Part shown: positions 30,833-36,479 of the stretch, piece after piece
Numbering within the stretch: the stretch's first letter is position 1
Layout: every line of letters begins with the position of its first letter
Source: a virus
Taxonomy: Duplodnaviria; Caudoviricetes
Direction: 5' to 3' (one strand)
Virus record (IMG/VR): IMGVR_UViG_3300033821_000049
Coordinates: 1 to 55,196 of that record
Length of the DNA stretch: 55,196 nt
Notes under the pieces: generated by a model
The model's database searches: none
What the model was told of the DNA's origin: nothing
The model's input: the letters and a program-made list of their open reading frames with translations, nothing else
Position numbers and translations under genes: made by a program

Positions 30833-30926
30833 TTATTTTATAAAATTTATAACTTTTTTATTTTTATTACGTATTTATTAATCCGAACGACAGTGAAAAA
30901 ATTTTTTAAAAATATTTTGGAAAATA

Positions 30927-30958
30927 CTTGTATATTAAAAATATCTTTATTACGTTTG
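30927..30958 (+). promoter_or_regulatory. Bacteroidota-type promoter driving the ncRNA cluster
   Basis: CTTG (30927-30930) and TACGTTTG (30951-30958). Confidence 0.6.
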
Positions 30959-30975
30959 CATCGTCTTAGGATAAG

Positions 30976-30986
30976 TGTTCTTTAAA
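30976..30986 (+). promoter_or_regulatory. boxA-like antitermination element (1 of 3)
   Basis: TGTTCTTTAAA; also TGTTCTTTGAAA at 31337-31348 and CGTTCTTTAAAA at 32356-32367. Resembles rrn boxA TGCTCTTTAACA. Confidence 0.55.
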
Positions 30987-31003
30987 TAATTGAAATTAAA
31001 AAC

Positions 31004-31136
31004 GGGGAAGTATGCGAATAAAATTCAAAAATACTATCGTAATACTCCTTACTGGAGAACTGATTGTGTTTACAGAAAAAGTACAGCAAATTGTCGTTCA
31101 AACAGTTGATTGGTGACTCGATATCACCCTTCCCCA
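31004..31136 (+). ncRNA. tRNA-like RNA E1 (acceptor stem + T-arm) carrying the conserved stem module
   Basis: GGGGAAG/CTTCCCC+A 7-bp stem; GGTGA-CTCGATA-TCACC T-arm; internal GGAGAACTGATTGTGTTTACAG. Confidence 0.6.
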
Positions 31137-31141
31137 CAAAG

Positions 31142-31267
31142 AAATGGAAACGGCTTGTTATTACAGTAAACAATTAGCTCAGTGATAGAGCGTCCGCATT
31201 CAAAGCAGAAGGTCGGGGTGTCGAAACCCCATCATGTAAAACAACATAACAAACAAATTATCCATTT
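31142..31267 (+). ncRNA. Y-RNA-like RNA E2 with an embedded tRNA body (UCA anticodon)
   Basis: Terminal stems AAATGGA/TCCATTT and TTGTTAT/ATAACAA enclose a D-arm (GCTC/GAGC), anticodon arm (loop ATTCAAA), AGGTC and a T-arm (GGGGT/ACCCC). Confidence 0.6.
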
Positions 31268-31279
31268 TCCTTATAACAT

Positions 31280-31328
31280 GCCAGTTCCCTTACTCATAAG
31301 AACAAGGCGCATAGAACTGGCTTTTTTT
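31280..31328 (+). terminator. Hairpin with U-tract (terminator or processing signal)
   Basis: GCCAGTTC...GAACTGGC followed by TTTTTTT. Confidence 0.55.
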
Positions 31329-31387
31329 GAAATTAATGTTCTTTGAAAACTATAGTTCGATTTAAAAGTCCGCAGTATTTATAATAA

Positions 31388-32152
31388 ATGTGTATTATGA
31401 ATAATTGTTTAAATTGTGGAAAATTTGTAAACAATAAATTTTGTAATGTTTCTTGTCAAAATGAATTTCAAAACACTGGAAGAAATGATAAAAAATATGG
31501 AAAATTTGTTGATTATTTGGTTAAATGTAATTCATGTGATAAAATTTTTATTGTAAATGAACGTGAAAAATTATATCCACAAAAGAAAAAATATTATTGC
31601 TCACGAAGTTGTGCAAATAAAAGAAAGCATTCACAGAAAACCAAAGATAAACTTTCTTTGAAAAATAAAAGAGTTAAATTTGTTAATTGTGAATATTGTG
31701 GAAATAGTTTTGAGCAGAAAAAAATAGATCAAAGATTTTGTGGACATTCATGTTCTACTAAATCTCGAATGCCACTAAAAGGATATGAAAGAATTGGTGG
31801 CTTGTGCTCTGTGAAATCACAAAATAAAAGAGGTAAAAATGAAATATATTTTGCTAAACTATGTTGTGATAAATTTAAATCTGTTCTTTGCAATAAACAA
31901 ATTTTTAATGGATGGGATGCTGATGTTATTATTGAAGATTATAAAATTGCAATATTATGGAATGGTATTTGGCACTATAAAAAAATATCAAAAAATCATT
32001 CTTTAATACAAACAAAGAATAGAGATATTTTAAAAATTAAAGAGATTATTAATTGTGGATACGAACCATATGTAATAAAAGATTTAGGAAGATTTGATAA
32101 AACCTTTGTTATGAAGGAATTTGAAAATTTTAGAAAACACATAGCGGGGTAG
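31388..32152 (+). CDS. Zn-ribbon repeat protein with a C-terminal PD-(D/E)XK (Vsr/DUF559-like) endonuclease; probable homing endonuclease
   Basis: Repeated CxxC...(F/Y)CxxSC units; WDADVII....IAILWNGIWHY...RD..K. Confidence 0.65.
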   Translation: MCIMNNCLNCGKFVNNKFCNVSCQNEFQNTGRNDKKYGKFVDYLVKCNSCDKIFIVNEREKLYPQKKKYYCSRSCANKRKHSQKTKDKLSLKNKRVKFVNCEYCGNSFEQKKIDQRFCGHSCSTKSRMPLKGYERIGGLCSVKSQNKRGKNEIYFAKLCCDKFKSVLCNKQIFNGWDADVIIEDYKIAILWNGIWHYKKISKNHSLIQTKNRDILKIKEIINCGYEPYVIKDLGRFDKTFVMKEFENFRKHIAG

Positions 32153-32215
32153 AGAAGCGGCATCTCACGAGCCTCATAAGCTCGGAATCACAGGTTCGAG
32201 TCCTGTCCAACGCTA
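32143..32215 (+). tRNA. tRNA-Met (CAT), initiator-like, with an imperfect acceptor stem
   Basis: AGCGGGG TA GAGA/TCTC, CGAGC-CTCATAA-GCTCG, ACAGG-TTCGAGT-CCTGT, CCAACGCT A; no encoded CCA. Confidence 0.8.
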
Positions 32216-32300: not shown

Positions 32301-32373
32301 AATTTATAAAAAGTAATTCCCCGTTGTCCCTGTGGCAACACAAACTTCGGGGTATCGTTCTTTAAAAATGCAA

Positions 32374-32511
32374 AGGGAAAACTTAAAGTGTTTACAGCAA
32401 TTTCGGTGGTTCGAATCCATCATCCTGCCAATGGCAGAATTAGACAAGCGGTTAAGTCAAAACTCTATGAAAGTTTCAAAACAATTCAAAAATACTTTTA
32501 AACTGTTCCCT
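32374..32511 (+). ncRNA. YrlA-like RNA E4 with a circularly permuted tRNA-His-like domain
   Basis: AGGGAA/TTCCCT and AAAGTGTTT/AAATACTTT stems enclose T-arm, loop-closed acceptor stem, D-arm and anticodon arm, in that order. Confidence 0.7.
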
Positions 32512-32726
32512 AAGTTTTAAAACGGAAATGGGTGAAGATAAATTATTTTCAATAAAATTAAACCCAACCCGTTTAATACCTAACATTTGAAGCATGTTGC
32601 AACGTGCGTGGTTAAGAATGGTTTTTATCAGCAGAAGTGCTGAGTTTTTTCAAAAATAAAGAAATAGTTATTGTGTCTAAGTTAAGCCAGATCGCAAGAT
32701 AGGACTTTTTTTCGGCAGTAATAAAA

Positions 32727-32981: not shown

Positions 32982-33692
32982 ATGGAAAATGAAGTAAAAA
33001 TATATACATTATCACACCCAATAACTAATGAAGTTAGATATGTGGGTAAAACGGTTGAATCTTTGGAAGAAAGATTACGTAAACACATATCAAGAAGAGA
33101 TAATACATATAAAAGTAATTGGATTATTTCTTTGAAAAAGGAAGGCTTAACTCCAAATATTGAGTTACTTGATGAATGTTCTTTGGTTGATTGGCATTGG
33201 CTTGAAAAATATTGGATTTTACAATTTAAATGTTGGAATTTTAAATTAACGAATATTTGTGAGGGTGGTAAAGGAAGTGATGGATTGAAACATTCTATTG
33301 AAAGTAAAGAAAAAATGAGTCAACGACAAAAAGGTAAACAATGGAGATTAGGTGCTGTTCTTACTGATGAAACCAAAGAAAAAATTAGATTAGGTAATTT
33401 AAATAAAAAAAGAAATCCTGATTCAGTAAAAAAAATGATAATAACAAAAACTGGCATGTCAACTGGCGTTGGAAGAAAACATACTATGACACATATAAAC
33501 AATATTAGTAATGGTATGATTAAAATAAAAGGAAAATCAGTGTCACAATATGATTTAAATATGAATTTTATTAAAGATTGGGCATCAATATCAACTGCCT
33601 CAAAAACACTAAAAATACCTAATAGTAATATTGTTAATGTTTGTAAGGGTAATAGAAAAACGGCAAAAAATTTTATTTGGATATATAATTAA
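32982..33692 (+). CDS. GIY-YIG homing endonuclease with NUMOD3/NUMOD1 motifs
   Basis: KIYTL...VRYVGKT...RLRKH...LEKYWI...LTN..EGG; KHSIESKEKMS; V.QYDL. Confidence 0.85.
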   Translation: MENEVKIYTLSHPITNEVRYVGKTVESLEERLRKHISRRDNTYKSNWIISLKKEGLTPNIELLDECSLVDWHWLEKYWILQFKCWNFKLTNICEGGKGSDGLKHSIESKEKMSQRQKGKQWRLGAVLTDETKEKIRLGNLNKKRNPDSVKKMIITKTGMSTGVGRKHTMTHINNISNGMIKIKGKSVSQYDLNMNFIKDWASISTASKTLKIPNSNIVNVCKGNRKTAKNFIWIYN

Positions 33693-33705: not shown

Positions 33706-35346
33706 ATGGAAAATTTAGTACTAACAAAATCAAGTTTAGATTTAATTAAATCTTCAATTATTCAAGGACTTGAAACAGCGAGTGGAAGTCGTAGTTCTGC
33801 AACTTACTACCATTCAAGAGACGAACAAATGAAGGCTATACATGGTCAGATTGACAAGTTGTATAAACTTTCAAAGGAACTTCCATTGATCATAGCTGCT
33901 CAGAAAGGTGCTACAGGTCAATTCGTTTCAGAAGTGTTGCTTAATGAATTTAAGCAAACATTAAAGGGCGGAGCATGTAATATTGTGAATCCAATCGACT
34001 GGTATGACAATGGTATCAGTGACAAGGCAGTGCTTAGTGCATTAAACAACCTTGCTAATGATAATGGTTTTCCATATGCATTACGTCTTTTTGTTGATAT
34101 GAAGAATCAGAAAATTAACAATGAGAGATCAAGAAAAATTATACTTGGTTTTCTTTGGGGACAAGCAAATATGGAATTCTATGCAATGAAGTACCGTAAC
34201 AAAATTGCAAAAATTTTGAAACATGTATATGGTCAGAAAAAGACCAGCATATTGCTTTCTATTGCACAGAAACAAGTTGCAATTAATAACACTGTTCTTT
34301 TCAATAATGTTTATACTGAAAAAGAAGCAAAAATTGTTAATGAATGTATTACAAAATATTACAATGGTGATGCATCAAAAGCATTTAAATTGTTACTTTT
34401 CTTATTTAAGAAAGATAATGGTGTTAATTTTTACGATTTACCACTTTTAACTGAATATGAAACAGCAAAAGTTGACATCAGGAATATTAAGAATGTTCCA
34501 GAAGAAGTTTTGCTTGGCTTAATTTCATCTGTAAAACATCCACAGTATCATTCAATGTGGTCAACTGATCTTCAGAGAGAAACCACAAAGGGTATAATCA
34601 GAGCAACAGTTCAGGTAACCTCTGTGAACCAACAGGTTCGTCAGACCAAATCAACTGCAAAGTTGGGTGTTGAAAAACATGTTGACTTGGAAAAAGCAAC
34701 TGATTTTATGGCTCTTTACAAAACTGGTTACGAAACCACTTTTACTGATGAATTGAAAATGGCTATTGGTAAACTTGCTGTTGCTAAGAGAATTCAGGGA
34801 TTCTTCTACCAAAATATTGGTATTATAGTTGACGACAGTATTTCAATGACTGGTCATAAGGCAGAATCAAAGAATACTCCAAGGGCAATTGCTGATTTTA
34901 CAGCTATAGTACTTGCAGCTTCAGTAACTGAAGTTGTAGTTGTAAGAACAAGTGGTTTTGAAAGTGATTTGGCAAGTTCATTTATTGAACTATTAAAAGA
35001 TCAGAATCCAGCAAAACCTTACGATGCTATTTTCATCTTAACTGATGGTTACGAAAATGCTTATGATGGATTGACTAACGAAGTTATTTCAATCTGGAAA
35101 ACAGAATCAGGCAGTATAACACCTATCTTTCAGATTTCACCAATTACTGGTGCTGAAACAGGTGGTAATGTAAGAGCATTAGGTGTTGGAGTAGTTACAA
35201 TGGCGATTAACAATCCTATTGCAATTCAGACACAAATCAATGCAAGATTGCTTGAAATTGACACAAAACGTTGGTTAGAAAATCAGGTTCATGCTCTTGA
35301 AGCTGCTCCTGTTAAGAGAACAAAAAAAATTACTATTAACGCTTAA
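33706..35346 (+). CDS. TROVE/Ro60-like helical protein with a C-terminal vWA (MIDAS) domain; start moved to ATG 33706
   Basis: 546 aa, basic alpha-helical N-region; vWA motifs IGIIVDDSISM (DxSxS), SDLA and IFILTDGYEN; architecture and size match Ro60/Rsr. The vWA call is firm; TROVE is inferred. Confidence 0.6.
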   Translation: MENLVLTKSSLDLIKSSIIQGLETASGSRSSATYYHSRDEQMKAIHGQIDKLYKLSKELPLIIAAQKGATGQFVSEVLLNEFKQTLKGGACNIVNPIDWYDNGISDKAVLSALNNLANDNGFPYALRLFVDMKNQKINNERSRKIILGFLWGQANMEFYAMKYRNKIAKILKHVYGQKKTSILLSIAQKQVAINNTVLFNNVYTEKEAKIVNECITKYYNGDASKAFKLLLFLFKKDNGVNFYDLPLLTEYETAKVDIRNIKNVPEEVLLGLISSVKHPQYHSMWSTDLQRETTKGIIRATVQVTSVNQQVRQTKSTAKLGVEKHVDLEKATDFMALYKTGYETTFTDELKMAIGKLAVAKRIQGFFYQNIGIIVDDSISMTGHKAESKNTPRAIADFTAIVLAASVTEVVVVRTSGFESDLASSFIELLKDQNPAKPYDAIFILTDGYENAYDGLTNEVISIWKTESGSITPIFQISPITGAETGGNVRALGVGVVTMAINNPIAIQTQINARLLEIDTKRWLENQVHALEAAPVKRTKKITINA

Positions 35347-35357
35347 AATATCATATT

Positions 35358-36479
35358 ATGATTACAAGAGAACTTACAGAAATGTTAAAAGGTTGCCGTC
35401 CTGTCAAAGACAAAGATGGTAACATCGTGGTACAGTCAATAATGAACATGCAAGTTGTATGCTTGACAACTGAGAAAGAAAACTCATTGGATGATCGCTT
35501 TGCGAATCCATTGACTTCATTAGTATCAAGTAATCAATCTTACGGACAGATTACGTTCAGTAATAAAGAGAACAAAGAAGTTATTTTTCCAGTTCAAATG
35601 GCTGTATTGACCAAACAACAGGCACAAAATCATGGTATGGTAAAAGCTGGTTATGTTGAACCTAAAGCAAATACAACATTTCATGACGCAGGTTGTGTTC
35701 AAGGTGGACAGACTGGATATTTTCAGGGTACTCAGGAGTTCAGAATGATTCCTGTTAGCATGCGTGAAATGTTGTTTGATAAGGTTGGTCAGACATCTGG
35801 CTATCAGAATATTTATCCTGCAATCCAGAAACTCGGTCAGGATACTAAATCTGGTACTGGTAATTATCTGAACATTTACTTTGAAAAGTTTGACAAGAAA
35901 CTTGATCAGTTTATTGCACACTTTGAACGTCCAAAGAATCTTATTGGTATCATTGTATTGATTGATGGTGAAATTGTTGCGATAGATAAATTCCCTTCAT
36001 TTACATACGCTGAACAGGTATGGGATTTGATGATCAGGGATTGCTATGGTTCACTTGCAATCATAAGTGAATTGCAGAACAAAACTGCAGGTAAGGTATT
36101 TACTGAAGCATATGAAGATGTTAAAAAGGGCACAGATAAATATGCTGTTGCAGGTAAGTATTCTATCGTTGATTTGCTCGAACAAGCATTGAAGAAAACC
36201 AAGAAATCGATTACTGATGATGTTAATGAGAGAATTCAGGAAGTTCTTGATCTCACATTTGATGCTACTATTGACACTGAAGGTAATCCTTCTGCAAACA
36301 GCAGAGCACCTAAGAGTTATATTCTTAAAACTGAAGGTTATATTGGTCAGGTAATTACTGAAAACGAATTTAATCATTTGGTGTCAATTATCAAAAGAGA
36401 GAGATTCAATCCAAATGCTTTCAGACAAGTAAGTGAACTTAGAAATAAGGCACGTAAAATGACACCATTCAAAATATAA
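35358..36479 (+). CDS. ARPP-like (DUF6569-related) protein, partner of the vWA protein
   Basis: VLTKQQAQNH...AGCVQGGQ.G...LDQFIAHFE...GIIVLIDGEIVAID recalls ARPP-type domains (recall only); starts 11 nt after the vWA gene. Confidence 0.5.
   Translation: MITRELTEMLKGCRPVKDKDGNIVVQSIMNMQVVCLTTEKENSLDDRFANPLTSLVSSNQSYGQITFSNKENKEVIFPVQMAVLTKQQAQNHGMVKAGYVEPKANTTFHDAGCVQGGQTGYFQGTQEFRMIPVSMREMLFDKVGQTSGYQNIYPAIQKLGQDTKSGTGNYLNIYFEKFDKKLDQFIAHFERPKNLIGIIVLIDGEIVAIDKFPSFTYAEQVWDLMIRDCYGSLAIISELQNKTAGKVFTEAYEDVKKGTDKYAVAGKYSIVDLLEQALKKTKKSITDDVNERIQEVLDLTFDATIDTEGNPSANSRAPKSYILKTEGYIGQVITENEFNHLVSIIKRERFNPNAFRQVSELRNKARKMTPFKI

What the first reader, a model, noticed from the sequence alone, without database searches (positions are those of the whole stretch)
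31004..31136. 133-nt RNA with real tRNA ends and the conserved motif in the anticodon position (E1)
Seen: perfect GGGGAAG/CTTCCCC acceptor stem plus discriminator A, directly preceded by a 5-bp/7-nt T-arm. Inside are an enlarged D-like region, a CTCC-TTACT-GGAG hairpin and the shared motif in a stem (AACTG/CAGTT, or GAAC/GTTC with TGTGTTT/AAGTACA). This is a third topology: tRNA ends outside, protein-binding module inside. Such ends could be matured by RNase P/Z and CCA addition, as for the tmRNA tRNA-like domain, and could also cut the polycistronic transcript into units (inference).
Basis: partly seen in the sequence, partly recalled or inferred. Interest (0 to 1): 0.7.

Follow-up and report, generated by a model that had tools for sequence, protein, structure and literature searches.

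The report
tRNA-shaped partner RNA of phage Ro60-like protein
This 133-base stretch of a huge uncultured phage encodes a conserved RNA folded like a whole tRNA, with a large conserved "handle" inserted in one loop; it most likely partners the Ro60-like ring protein encoded just downstream.

Summary
E1 (31004-31136, + strand) is real. The 7-bp acceptor stem, discriminator A, abutting 5-bp/7-nt T arm and CTCC/GGAG hairpin are all present. They are conserved in 70 distinct homologues: 97.2% of cells paired, 22 of 28 pairs with compensatory changes.

The motif GUGUUU instead pairs with AAAUAC upstream.

The handle is not in the anticodon position. E1 reads as a full cloverleaf:
- a short D stem closing a roughly 70-nt D loop that carries the handle;
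- a 5-bp anticodon-like arm with a 7-nt loop of variable sequence;
- a 5-nt variable loop, then T arm and acceptor.

No tRNA, tmRNA or YrlA model matches it.

E1 always lies between a DnaB-like gene and a 546-aa protein plus an ARPP-1 protein. The 546-aa protein has no Pfam hit, but its model (pLDDT 92.5) matches Ro60 at Z 18.4. E1 is found in 14 of 17 loci with that protein and in 0 of 11 without it.

Best reading: a Y-RNA-like partner RNA with true tRNA ends. Binding, RNase P/Z processing and CCA addition are inferred, not shown.

This scan has already found the same Ro60-like/handle-RNA system on other DNA (e1-5772232, e1-5790182, e1-5782824, e1-5924251). The open-ended, D-loop-insert topology is the new point here.

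The parts
30977..30986 (+). Upstream conserved motif GTTCTTTAAA. Either a promoter element or a boxA-like leader site; which one is undecided.
   Evidence: GTTC[TA]T lies within 50 nt upstream of 58 of 70 homologues, ending 8-24 nt before the 5' end, against 5% of random 50-mers. There are 3 exact GTTCTTTRAA sites in the window, all on + and all in the RNA gaps; 0.82 are expected.
31004..31010 (+). Acceptor stem, 5' strand (positions 1-7).
   Evidence: Perfect 7 bp with 31129-31135. 99.6% of cells paired and 6 of 7 pairs compensated in 70 homologues.
31013..31015 (+). D-stem-like 5' strand (UGC) following U8 A9.
   Evidence: Pairs with GCA at 31086-31088 in the MFE. A 2-4 bp closing helix is seen in 66 of 68 homologues, with strand pairs such as GAUU/AAUC, GAUC/GAUC, GUGA/ACAC and GCAA/AUGC. 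Summed contiguous pairs are 170 against 138.8 +/- 3.2 in shuffles, with 0 of 1000 as high.
31029..31034 (+). Handle, upper stem, 5' strand (AAAUAC).
   Evidence: Pairs with 31066-31071. 98.5% paired and 4 of 6 pairs compensated. RNAalifold extends it to 9 bp.
31035..31044 (+). Handle, internal loop, 5' side.
   Evidence: Unpaired in the consensus structure. In one subgroup it is also complementary to nucleotides 5-10; this is unexplained.
31045..31057 (+). Handle, lower stem capped by a loop (CUCC-UUACU-GGAG).
   Evidence: 99.3% paired and 3 of 4 pairs compensated. Loop length varies from 2 to 14 nt among the 70 homologues.
31055..31061 (+). Near-invariant GAGAACU (lower-stem 3' strand plus internal loop), the core of the motif shared with the neighbouring elements.
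   Evidence: Consensus GAGAACT at 90% or more in 70 homologues. It resembles, but does not match, the Ro60-contact motifs GNCGAAN0-1G and CGAA reported for bacterial and phage Y RNAs (PMC4201824, PMC12135203, passages read).
31066..31075 (+). Handle, upper stem 3' strand GUGUUU, then unpaired ACAG.
   Evidence: GTKTWTACAG occurs 4 times in the window, all on + and all in the two RNA gaps. 0.70 are expected, and 0 of 100 shuffles reach 4. CAG is conserved at 90% or more in homologues.
31081..31088 (+). D-loop remnant (G)GUA-like, then the D-stem 3' strand (GCA).
   Evidence: Family consensus GgTAaAgc. The window has AGUACAGCA. Pairing to 31013-31015 is seen.
31090..31106 (+). Anticodon-like arm: 5-bp stem, 7-nt loop.
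   Evidence: The 5 inner pairs are paired in nearly all cells, and 4 of the 6 modelled pairs are compensated. The loop is 7 nt in 63 of 70 homologues but its sequence varies (35 different loops; the commonest, GTTGAAA, occurs 22 times). The window has G where a tRNA has U33.
31107..31111 (+). Variable-loop equivalent (5 nt including position 44).
   Evidence: The linker after the 26/44 position is 4 nt in 67 of 70 homologues, GATT in 34 of 70.
31112..31128 (+). T arm (5 bp, 7-nt loop).
   Evidence: 100% paired and 5 of 5 pairs compensated. Loops are TTCGANT or TTCAANT in most homologues. The window has CTCGATA, seen once among the 70.
31129..31136 (+). Acceptor 3' strand plus discriminator A.
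   Evidence: Discriminator is A in 54, G in 14 and U in 2 of 70. The next base is C in 70 of 70. CCA is encoded in 8 of 70; the window has CAA.
31146..31267 (+). Context, not part of E1.
   Evidence: A module-like start lies 7-14 nt downstream in 35 of 70 homologues, against 1% of random 50-mers. Its core scores as Rfam tRNA at 33.7 bits, 31170-31238.
33706..35346 (+). 546-aa Ro60-fold protein (helical-repeat ring plus vWA domain with DxSxS), the inferred partner.
   Evidence: No Pfam family and no TROVE HMM match. Model pLDDT 92.5, pTM 0.90. The 12 best Foldseek entries are all Ro60/Rsr/TROVE. VIA-align gives Z 18.4, rmsd 4.1 A over 407 residues to 2i91_A, and the top 10 entries are all Ro60-type. 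D376 is invariant and S378 and S380 nearly invariant in 75 sequences.
35358..36479 (+). ARPP-1 domain protein, always downstream of the Ro60-fold gene.
   Evidence: Pfam PF20208, E 6.9e-15. It follows the 546-aa gene in every locus long enough to show it.

Best explanation
E1 is a stable non-coding RNA of a huge uncultured phage. It folds as a complete tRNA-like cloverleaf:
- a 7-bp acceptor stem;
- a 2-4 bp D stem;
- a 5-bp anticodon-like arm with a 7-nt loop;
- a 5-nt variable loop, a T arm and a discriminator.

Its D loop is expanded to about 70 nt by a conserved 'handle'. The handle has a capped lower stem, an internal loop with invariant AACU, the upper stem AAAUAC/GUGUUU, and then unpaired ACAG.

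The same handle is carried in other topologies by four neighbouring RNAs. I read it as the docking site for the Ro60-fold protein encoded 2.6 kb downstream. That makes E1 a Y-RNA analogue.

The tRNA-shaped body would do three things. It would give the RNA its ends, through RNase P at 31003/31004, 3' trimming after 31136 and CCA addition. It would protect the RNA from exonucleases. It would present a tRNA-like surface to a further partner.

Shown: the structure, its conservation, its co-occurrence with the protein, and the protein's fold.

Inferred: binding, processing, CCA addition, and what the particle does.
For: Structure:
- MFE z = -2.81.
- 70 distinct homologues with 97.2% paired cells and 22 of 28 compensated pairs.
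- An independent RNAalifold run recovers the helices.
- The D-stem test is positive.

RNA rather than protein constraint: E1 is about 90% identical in loci whose DnaB-like protein is only 52-77% identical.

Shared handle: GTKTWTACAG occurs 4 times, all in the RNA gaps, with 0.70 expected.

Association:
- The order is 5'-3' exonuclease, a 212-aa protein, DnaB-like, E1 (1-3 copies), the 546-aa protein, ARPP-1 in all loci long enough.
- Among 53 DnaB loci, E1 at 80 bits or more is in 14 of 17 with the 546-aa gene.
- It is in 0 of 11 loci that have 6 kb or more downstream without that gene.

Protein:
- Ro60 fold at Z 18.4 over 407 residues; the 10 best entries are all Ro60/Rsr/TROVE.
- A MIDAS-type DxSxS motif is conserved.

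Wider family:
- Phage loci with 39-48% identical relatives of the protein carry complete tRNAs (Rfam 47.8 and 49 bits) with a 65-75-nt insert in the variable region. By eye, that insert holds the handle motif in one of them and a diverged form in the other.
- A 31% relative's locus has sub-threshold YrlA matches (37.3 and 34.3 bits, cut-off 69).

Precedent, from passages read:
- Y RNAs lie next to Ro60 genes in bacteria and phages and mimic tRNA.
- M. smegmatis YrlA is cut by RNase P and receives CCA (PMC4201824).
- Thermus phage phiLo Ro60 binds two upstream Y-like RNAs (PMC12135203).

3' end: C follows the discriminator in 70 of 70 homologues.
Against: - No binding data exist.
- The protein matches no TROVE model by sequence, so 'Ro60-like' rests on a predicted fold.
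- The handle does not contain the published Ro60 contact motif. It has GAGAAC where YrlA has GNCGAA.
- No Rfam Y_RNA or YrlA match reaches E <= 10 on E1.
- E1 is 0.4-2.5 kb from the protein gene, with mobile endonuclease genes sometimes in between.
- 3 of 17 loci with the protein lack a strong E1.
- Contigs from RNA libraries run across both predicted ends and show no CCA. They are contigs, so they say little either way.
- The window's copy has a weakened elbow: C54, an A53-U61 pair, and AG in place of GG.
- All covariation counts use related sequences, and an alignment fitted to the model leans towards it.
Confidence: 0.6

Rival explanations
1. The tRNA shape serves only as processing punctuation and a stabiliser. 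The handle binds some other factor, such as the ARPP-1 protein, the 212-aa protein or a host protein, and not the Ro60-fold protein.
For: ARPP-1 co-occurs just as strictly as the Ro60-fold gene. A second module RNA follows E1 by 7-14 nt in 35 of 70 homologues. The handle lacks the published Ro60 contact motif (PMC4201824, passages read).
Against: Across life, RNAs that combine a stem/internal-loop/stem handle with tRNA mimicry and sit beside a Ro60-type gene are Ro60 ligands (PMC4201824, PMC12135203, passages read). ARPP is predicted to be an enzyme acting on ribose moieties, with no RNA-binding domain noted (PMC9503650, passages read).
Confidence: 0.15
2. E1 is a decoy or bait tRNA. Its tRNA body draws host tRNA-targeting defence nucleases or tRNA-handling enzymes, with or without the Ro60-fold protein.
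For: The cloverleaf geometry is complete and conserved while the anticodon-like loop is free to vary. Relatives of the protein gene sit in large phage tRNA arrays: 73 tRNA matches and 1 tmRNA match in 15 distant loci. Phage tRNAs and RNA repair as counter-defence are described in PMC7824862 and PMC9503650 (passages read).
Against: A decoy for anticodon nucleases would be expected to keep a specific anticodon loop, yet 35 different loops occur in 70 homologues. This reading does not explain why the handle is the most conserved part.
Confidence: 0.1
3. E1 is a cis-acting or switching leader element of the RNA/protein operon. Alternative pairing of its 5' strand would control processing or read-through.
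For: In one subgroup, nucleotides 5-10 are also complementary to the segment just 3' of AAAUAC, with a few double changes: 85.4% paired in 47 sequences, and 2 of 500 shuffles as high. A boxA-like GTTCTTTAAA lies upstream.
Against: With 70 sequences the alternative helix does barely better than shuffles on paired cells (79.0% against 77.7%, 10 of 500 as high), and its covariation score does not exceed them. The window's subgroup cannot form it in that register. The cloverleaf explains nearly all conserved pairing.
Confidence: 0.07
4. E1 is a working, decoding tRNA with an unusually large D-loop insert, or a tmRNA-like rescue RNA.
For: Acceptor stem, T arm, 5-bp arm with a 7-nt loop, 5-nt variable loop and discriminator are all in tRNA register. 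One homologue, L183, passes the Rfam tRNA cut-off (34 bits against 29).
Against: - ARAGORN finds nothing.
- Rfam tRNA and tmRNA give no match on E1 even at E <= 10.
- The anticodon-like loop is not conserved, and the window has G at position 33.
- The 3-70 pair is G-C in 63 of 70 and G-U in 1, so the alanine/tmRNA mark is absent.
- No conserved reading frame is seen by eye.
- The insert is the best-conserved part.
Confidence: 0.04

Closest known systems
YrlA-type bacterial and phage Y RNAs with Ro60/Rsr (Rfam RF02553; Chen et al. 2014, PMC4201824, passages read)
   Same: A small RNA encoded beside a Ro60-type gene. It combines a stem/internal-loop/stem handle with a tRNA-like domain that has a canonical T arm. 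One member (M. smegmatis YrlA) has a 7-bp acceptor stem, is cut by RNase P and gains CCA.
   Different: - YrlA is permuted: T arm, closed acceptor hairpin, D arm, with the RNA ends in the handle.
- E1 has free acceptor ends, its own anticodon-like arm, and the handle capped and inserted in the D loop.
- The handle sequence differs (GAGAAC...GUGUUU-ACAG, not GNCGAA).
- There is no RF02553 match.
- The protein is not recognised by the TROVE HMM.
Thermus phage phiLo Ro60 with Yrl1/Yrl2 (PMC12135203, abstract and passages read; PDB 9L5Y, 9KOP)
   Same: A phage-encoded Ro60-fold protein with more than one Y-like RNA gene just upstream. Both structures are among the matches to the model: 9kop at Z 15.3 and 9l5y_B at Z 14.8.
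   Different: The phiLo RNAs are described as simple stem-bulge-stem RNAs with a CGAA motif. No tRNA-like part appears in the passages I read (0 occurrences of 'tRNA-like'). Here there is an array of five RNAs with tRNA parts, plus an ARPP-1 partner gene.
tRNA (Rfam RF00005)
   Same: Acceptor, T arm, 5-bp arm with a 7-nt loop, 5-nt variable loop and discriminator in standard register. U8 and A9 are invariant in the first 12-sequence alignment. One homologue scores above the cut-off.
   Different: A D loop of about 70 nt, a D stem of only 2-4 bp, no conserved anticodon or U33, and no model match for the window's copy.
tmRNA tRNA-like domain (Rfam RF00023)
   Same: A long RNA whose two ends form an acceptor stem stacked on a T arm, with a large functional insert in between. 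Processed like a tRNA, from established knowledge.
   Different: No G3-U70 pair, no tag reading frame, no pseudoknots, less than half the length, and no model match.
Phage T4 stable RNAs 'species 1 and 2' in the tRNA cluster (recalled from memory; no paper read here)
   Same: As I recall, these are phage RNAs of 120-140 nt with tRNA-like termini, processed together with tRNAs.
   Different: I know of no Ro60-type partner or shared handle for them. This comparison is a lead only.

Membership tests
tRNA (RF00005) | 7-bp acceptor stem stacked on a 5-bp T arm with a 7-nt T loop | tested here: met
   for the window. 99.6% and 100% of cells paired, with covariation, in 70 homologues.
tRNA (RF00005) | D arm with a 3-4 bp stem and a 7-11 nt loop containing GG | tested here: inconclusive
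   A 2-4 bp closing stem is supported, but the loop is about 70 nt. GG is present in most homologues; the window has AG.
tRNA (RF00005) | Anticodon loop with U33 and an anticodon conserved among orthologues | tested here: not met
   The loop is 7 nt in 63 of 70, but there are 35 different sequences. The window has G at position 33.
tRNA (RF00005) | Detected by tRNA finders or the covariance model | tested here: not met
   ARAGORN finds 0 genes. No RF00005 match on 30990-31150 at E <= 10. One distant homologue, L183, scores 34 bits against a cut-off of 29.
YrlA / bacterial Y RNA (RF02553) | Encoded next to a Ro60 (TROVE + vWA) gene | tested here: met
   Met at the level of fold: Z 18.4 to Ro60, conserved synteny, and co-occurrence in 14 of 17 against 0 of 11 loci. 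The TROVE HMM itself does not match.
YrlA / bacterial Y RNA (RF02553) | Terminal stem formed by the 5' and 3' ends, enclosing T arm, closed acceptor hairpin and D arm | tested here: not met
   E1's ends form the acceptor stem, and the handle is internal and capped.
YrlA / bacterial Y RNA (RF02553) | Conserved GNCGAAN0-1G motif in the handle (PMC4201824) | tested here: not met
   The invariant handle sequence is GAGAACU. It is similar but does not fit the pattern.
YrlA / bacterial Y RNA (RF02553) | Covariance-model score | tested here: not met
   No match at E <= 10. Sub-threshold matches (37.3 and 34.3 bits, cut-off 69) occur only in a distant relative's locus, L206.
Y RNA in the functional sense | Bound by Ro60 in vivo or in vitro | not testable with these tools
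   No RNA-protein prediction or binding assay was available.
tmRNA (RF00023) | G3-U70 pair, tag reading frame, model match | tested here: not met
   The 3-70 pair is G-C in 63 of 70 and G-U in 1. No conserved frame is seen by eye. No model match.
Ro60/TROVE (for the 546-aa partner) | Pfam TROVE domain (PF05731) | tested here: not met
   No family at E <= 0.01. The HMM search of the record found nothing while its controls rang. 10 distant relatives also lack it.
Ro60/TROVE (for the 546-aa partner) | Helical-repeat ring followed by a vWA domain with a MIDAS DxSxS motif | tested here: met
   Model pLDDT 92.5. Full-length alignment to Ro60 covers residues 16-515 against 28-537. D376 is invariant and S378 and S380 are conserved at 90% or more.

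The most novel reading that the evidence does not exclude
E1-type RNAs are matured like tRNAs and receive CCA, and possibly an amino acid. They then act as adaptors that carry the phage's Ro60-fold/ARPP-1 particle to tRNA-handling machinery (EF-Tu, ribosome, synthetases, or tRNA repair or defence nucleases). The array of five handle RNAs with different tRNA topologies would then be a set of interchangeable adaptors for one protein ring.
Probability: 0.15. Interest if true: 0.85.

Novelty: new variant of a known kind. Interest (0 to 1): 0.6.

Why it matters
Y RNAs that mimic tRNA are known. In those RNAs the tRNA part is a sealed, permuted imitation.

E1 differs. It has a whole cloverleaf with free, processable ends, and it carries the protein-docking handle in its D loop. 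It belongs to a family of at least 70 distinct sequences in uncultured huge phages. It sits beside a Ro60-fold protein that sequence models miss.

If the RNA is processed and CCA-tailed, it would be a direct physical link between an RNA-surveillance ring and the tRNA world. It would also give a concrete, testable substrate (RNA, protein and ARPP-1 enzyme) for asking what phage Ro60 particles do.

It also shows that tRNA finders and Rfam overlook a recurrent class of tRNA-derived phage RNAs.

Tried and rejected
Known RNA families. ARAGORN found nothing. Rfam at gathering scores gave no match on E1. Rfam at E <= 10 gave nothing on E1 either, on 8 kb and on 161 nt. On the neighbouring E4 (32340-32540), 9 weak matches appeared and none was YrlA.

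AACTG/CAGTT, GAAC/GTTC and TGTGTTT/AAGTACA are not conserved.

My own early D-stem ideas. UGCG/CGUA occurs in one subgroup only and never varies there. GCAA/UUGC clashes with the covarying lower stem. I dropped both after reading the alignments.

tmRNA idea. A frame from GCA to a stop is open in the window and in two relatives, but not in others (by eye), so I dropped it.

Alternative pairing of nucleotides 5-10 with the segment after AAAUAC. It looked promising in 47 sequences. With 70 sequences it was hardly above shuffles, so I leave it unexplained.

Sigma-70 promoter scan. 16 sites against 13.1 expected, which is uninformative.

Sequence-level link of the 546-aa protein to Ro60. I tried Pfam, the TROVE HMM, phmmer against PDB chains and two profile searches. 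None found Ro60; only a weak vWA hit appeared (E 0.44). The first structure model, from a shallow alignment, was poor (pLDDT 66), although its best Foldseek matches were already Ro60.

Expression. One search for runs and one laying. Only Logan contigs of four peat metatranscriptome runs were available.
- Two contigs of run X1 bridge the predicted 5' end (30883-31032) and 3' end (31058-31373).
- A contig of X4 also crosses the 5' end (30893-31043).
- One X3 contig covers 30984-31089 and then continues unlike the window.
- Depths are 5-15.
This shows neither transcription for certain nor processing nor CCA. Uncovered parts mean nothing.

GenBank phages. There is no DNA match to E1 at E <= 1. The protein has one 26% match, in an unannotated 462-kb uncultured phage. 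The 3-kb DNA query found only a 302-nt, 73.6% match to Prevotella phage Lak-C1 inside the 254-aa ORF, plus tRNA-like hits. I therefore do not call this phage a Lak phage.

Pattern search. Of the 76 stretches found, I scanned 60 (the other 16 lie on contigs already held). 41 matches of 80 bits or more came from 35 of those loci. The remaining loci are probably chance matches of a 17-base AT-rich pattern.

Literature. Four searches found no paper describing tRNA-shaped Y-like RNAs with a D-loop handle, or this protein family, in huge phages. 6 papers hold both 'YrlA' and 'phage', and none is on huge phages. Supplementary tables of PMC4201824 (lists of phage YrlA RNAs) and of PMC9503650 (ARPP contexts) were not open to me and could bear on novelty.
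Full report
WHAT THE WINDOW IS. The window is a whole IMG/VR virus record of 55,196 bases, rated about 12% complete. GC content is 26-38% and all long ORFs lie on the + strand. Table 11 ORFs of 100 aa or more cover 93.5% of it. Relatives lie on contigs of up to 362-435 kb, so this is a fragment of a huge phage. The only GenBank-phage DNA similarity near E1 is a 302-nt, 73.6% match to Prevotella phage Lak-C1 inside a neighbouring ORF. I do not call it a Lak phage.

THE OBSERVATION.
- a perfect 7-bp acceptor stem and discriminator A;
- a 5-bp/7-nt T arm directly abutting the acceptor 3' strand;
- the hairpin CTCC-TTACT-GGAG.

The RNA folds to -32.4 kcal/mol, z = -2.81, and 0 of 200 shuffles fold as well. 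ARAGORN finds no tRNA in the window. Rfam gives nothing on E1 at gathering scores, or at E <= 10 even when only 161 nt are searched.

HOMOLOGUES.
- Relatives of the upstream DnaB-like protein gave 53 viral loci.
- E1 is about 90% identical in loci whose helicase is only 52-77% identical.
- A covariance model built from 12 sequences found 18 matches of 84 bits or more in the window plus those 53 loci.
- It found 41 matches of 80 bits or more in 60 further loci fetched with a motif pattern.
- It found 36 matches of 83 bits or more in 47 loci fetched through the downstream protein.
- A final search of 57 sources gave 70 matches at E <= 1e-8, all distinct.

STRUCTURE. On the 70 sequences, 97.2% of cells are paired, against 46-55% when partners are slid by 1-3 columns. 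22 of 28 pairs change on both sides:
- acceptor, 6 of 7 pairs;
- AAAUAC/GUGUUU, 4 of 6 pairs;
- capped lower stem, 3 of 4 pairs;
- the hairpin before the T arm, 4 of 6 pairs;
- T arm, 5 of 5 pairs.

That alignment is fitted to the model. RNAalifold on an independent MAFFT alignment of 28 sequences finds the same helices and extends the upper stem to 9 bp. 15 of its 27 pairs are compensated.

E1 IS A WHOLE CLOVERLEAF. The hairpin before the T arm has a 5-bp stem with an often mismatched outer 26/44-like pair, and a loop of 7 nt in 63 of 70 homologues. Four further nucleotides follow it before the T stem in 67 of 70. That is the geometry of an anticodon arm plus a 5-nt variable loop.

After the acceptor come U8 A9 and a G-C-rich strand. 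Just before the anticodon-like arm comes the consensus GgUAaAgc. This reads like the G18 G19 U20 A21 end of a D loop plus the 3' strand of a D stem.

The two strands pair over 2-4 bp in 66 of 68 sequences. Their partners change together: GCAA/AAGC, UGCG/AGCA, GCAA/AUGC, GAUU/AAUC, GAUC/GAUC, GUGA/ACAC. Summed contiguous pairs are 170, against 138.8 +/- 3.2 in shuffles given the same freedom of register, and 0 of 1000 shuffles reach 170. A stricter fixed-column count gives 142 of 268 against 130.5 +/- 2.2.

The single-sequence MFE of the window's copy already contains this closure (UGC/GCA). It differs from the strict cloverleaf by only 1.2 kcal/mol.

So the conserved handle sits in a D loop of about 70 nt, not in the anticodon position. 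The handle consists of the upper stem, an internal loop with invariant AACU, the capped lower stem, and then unpaired ACAG.

The anticodon-like loop is not conserved. There are 35 different loops, and the window has G where a tRNA has U33. Decoding is therefore unlikely.

The window's copy also departs from the family at the elbow. Its T loop is CUCGAUA, it has an A-U pair at 53-61, and it has AG in place of GG.

CONTEXT IN THE WINDOW. GTKTWTACAG occurs four times, all on + and all in the two non-coding gaps (31066, 32234, 32388, 32740). 0.70 are expected and 0 of 100 shuffles reach four. A fifth variant lies at 31156.

By eye, the neighbours carry the same handle as their terminal stem, with other interiors. 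One has a tRNA body without a good acceptor stem (Rfam tRNA 33.7 bits at 31170-31238). One runs T arm, closed acceptor hairpin, D arm. That one shares a 14-nt exact stretch with E1 but gives no YrlA match. I checked these neighbours only lightly.

THE PARTNER PROTEIN. In every locus long enough, the order is: 5'-3' exonuclease, a 212-aa protein, DnaB-like, E1 (1-3 copies), a 546-aa protein, an ARPP-1 protein. The 254-aa ORF and the GIY-YIG endonuclease seen in the window are sporadic.

Among the 53 DnaB loci, 17 hold the 546-aa gene and 14 of those have E1 at 80 bits or more. 11 loci have 6 kb or more downstream without the gene, and none of them has E1.

At the sequence level the protein is unrecognised:
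- It has no Pfam family and no TROVE HMM match, although that search's controls rang.
- It has no PDB relative by sequence or by profile.
- It is nonetheless very conserved: the best 120 of 365 hits are 72% identical or more.
- It has 307 representatives at E <= 0.001 in the 50% library.

At the fold level it is a Ro60-type protein:
- With a 75-sequence alignment, the model reaches pLDDT 92.5 and pTM 0.90.
- The 12 best Foldseek entries are all Ro60, Rsr or TROVE structures, best E 6.8e-6.
- VIA-align gives Z 18.4, rmsd 4.1 A over 407 residues, spanning 16-515 of the model and 28-537 of Xenopus Ro60.
- All ten top VIA-align entries are Ro60-type. vWA/MIDAS domains alone follow at Z 12.
- The DxSxS motif is conserved.

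I therefore call it Ro60-fold, not a TROVE-family member by sequence.

WIDER FAMILY. Phage loci with 39-48% identical relatives of the protein carry complete tRNAs by the Rfam model (47.8 and 49 bits) just upstream of the gene. These have a 65-75-nt insert in the variable region. By eye, the insert of L189 holds the handle motif (AGAACU ... GUUAUUUCAG), and that of L194 a more diverged form.

The locus of a 31% relative has a 146-nt tRNA with an 88-nt insert, and two sub-threshold YrlA matches (37.3 and 34.3 bits against a cut-off of 69; E 8.5e-5 and 6.5e-4). One of these may be the known tandem-tRNA artefact that Chen et al. warn of.

Distant relatives of the gene sit in phage tRNA arrays: 73 tRNA matches and 1 tmRNA match in 15 loci.

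So grafting this handle onto tRNA bodies at different sites is a recurring theme around this protein family.

ENDS AND FLANKS.
- The base after the discriminator is C in 70 of 70 homologues. The next three bases are CAA in 42 and CCA in 8.
- Another handle-bearing RNA starts 7-14 nt downstream in 35 of 70, against 1% of random 50-mers. E1 is therefore probably co-transcribed and cut out.
- GTTC[TA]T lies 8-24 nt upstream in 58 of 70, against 5% of random 50-mers.
- In the window, GTTCTTTRAA occurs three times, all in the RNA gaps.

From memory the E. coli boxA is similar. I cannot decide between a promoter element and a transcribed antitermination site. The latter would imply a 5' leader that RNase P must remove.

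EXPRESSION. Only assembled contigs of four peat metatranscriptome runs could be laid. They cover parts of 30883-31373 and bridge both predicted ends at depths of 5-15. This shows neither processing nor CCA, and DNA carry-over cannot be excluded.

HOW IT MOST LIKELY WORKS. By analogy with Ro60 and Y RNAs (PMC4201824 and PMC12135203, passages read), the handle docks on the Ro60-fold protein. The tRNA body gives defined, protected ends and a tRNA-like face for a further partner.

The ARPP-1 neighbour is predicted in PMC9503650 (passages read) to be an enzyme acting on ribose moieties. Those passages mention no link to Ro60.

Structure, conservation, co-occurrence and protein fold are shown here. 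Binding, processing and function are inferred.

COMPARISON AND NOVELTY. E1 works like a tRNA-mimicking Y RNA but fails the membership tests for YrlA (topology, motif, model score), for tRNA (anticodon loop, model score) and for tmRNA.

I found no paper describing it.

This scan has already reported the Ro60-like protein with handle RNAs, and its ARPP-1 coupling, on other DNA. What this finding adds is the open-ended cloverleaf with the handle in the D loop. I rate it a new variant of a known kind, with interest 0.6.

Noticed in passing
window 32144-32214: An Rfam tRNA match (44 bits, anticodon CAU) with an imperfect acceptor stem. ARAGORN does not call it. Its first bases overlap the end of the 254-aa ORF (31388-32152).
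   Followed up: no
window 31170-31238 (within 31146-31267): A tRNA body (Rfam 33.7 bits, anticodon-position UCA) whose acceptor stem is poor. Its flanks instead form the shared handle stem. It starts 10 nt after E1.
   Followed up: partly
window 32376-32511: By eye: T arm, closed acceptor hairpin (one mismatch) and D arm, enclosed by the handle stem, which is the YrlA topology. It shares a 14-nt exact stretch with E1. No Rfam YrlA match at E <= 10.
   Followed up: partly
window 30977, 31338, 32357: GTTCTTTRAA occurs three times, all on + and all in the RNA gaps. The same motif lies upstream of 58 of 70 E1 homologues. It may be a promoter element or a boxA-like site.
   Followed up: partly
window 31388-32152 and 32982-33692: The 254-aa zinc-finger-like ORF (no Pfam) and the GIY-YIG/NUMOD endonuclease interrupt the RNA array here. 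They are present in only a few related loci, so they are probably mobile homing-type insertions.
   Followed up: partly
window 31004-31044 and homologues: In the GGGGAGA subgroup, nucleotides 5-10 are also complementary to the segment just after AAAUAC, with a few double changes. With 70 sequences the signal is weak. A possible alternative fold that would free the 3' end.
   Followed up: partly
L189:2754-2889 and L194:2764-2909: Complete tRNAs with the handle inserted in the variable region. By eye, their anticodon loops are 8 nt rather than 7.
   Followed up: no
window 33706-35346: The Ro60-fold protein is far better conserved than its neighbours. The best 120 database clusters are 72-96% identical, while the DnaB-like protein of the same loci is 52-77% identical.
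   Followed up: partly
window 32664-32725: One RNA-library contig of run X3 skips 60 nt here, with one other letter in between. This is probably a strain variant of the array.
   Followed up: no
L203:302-660: A full tmRNA (Rfam 106.3 bits) lies about 3.3 kb upstream of the distant Ro60-fold gene in another huge-phage contig, among tRNAs.
   Followed up: no
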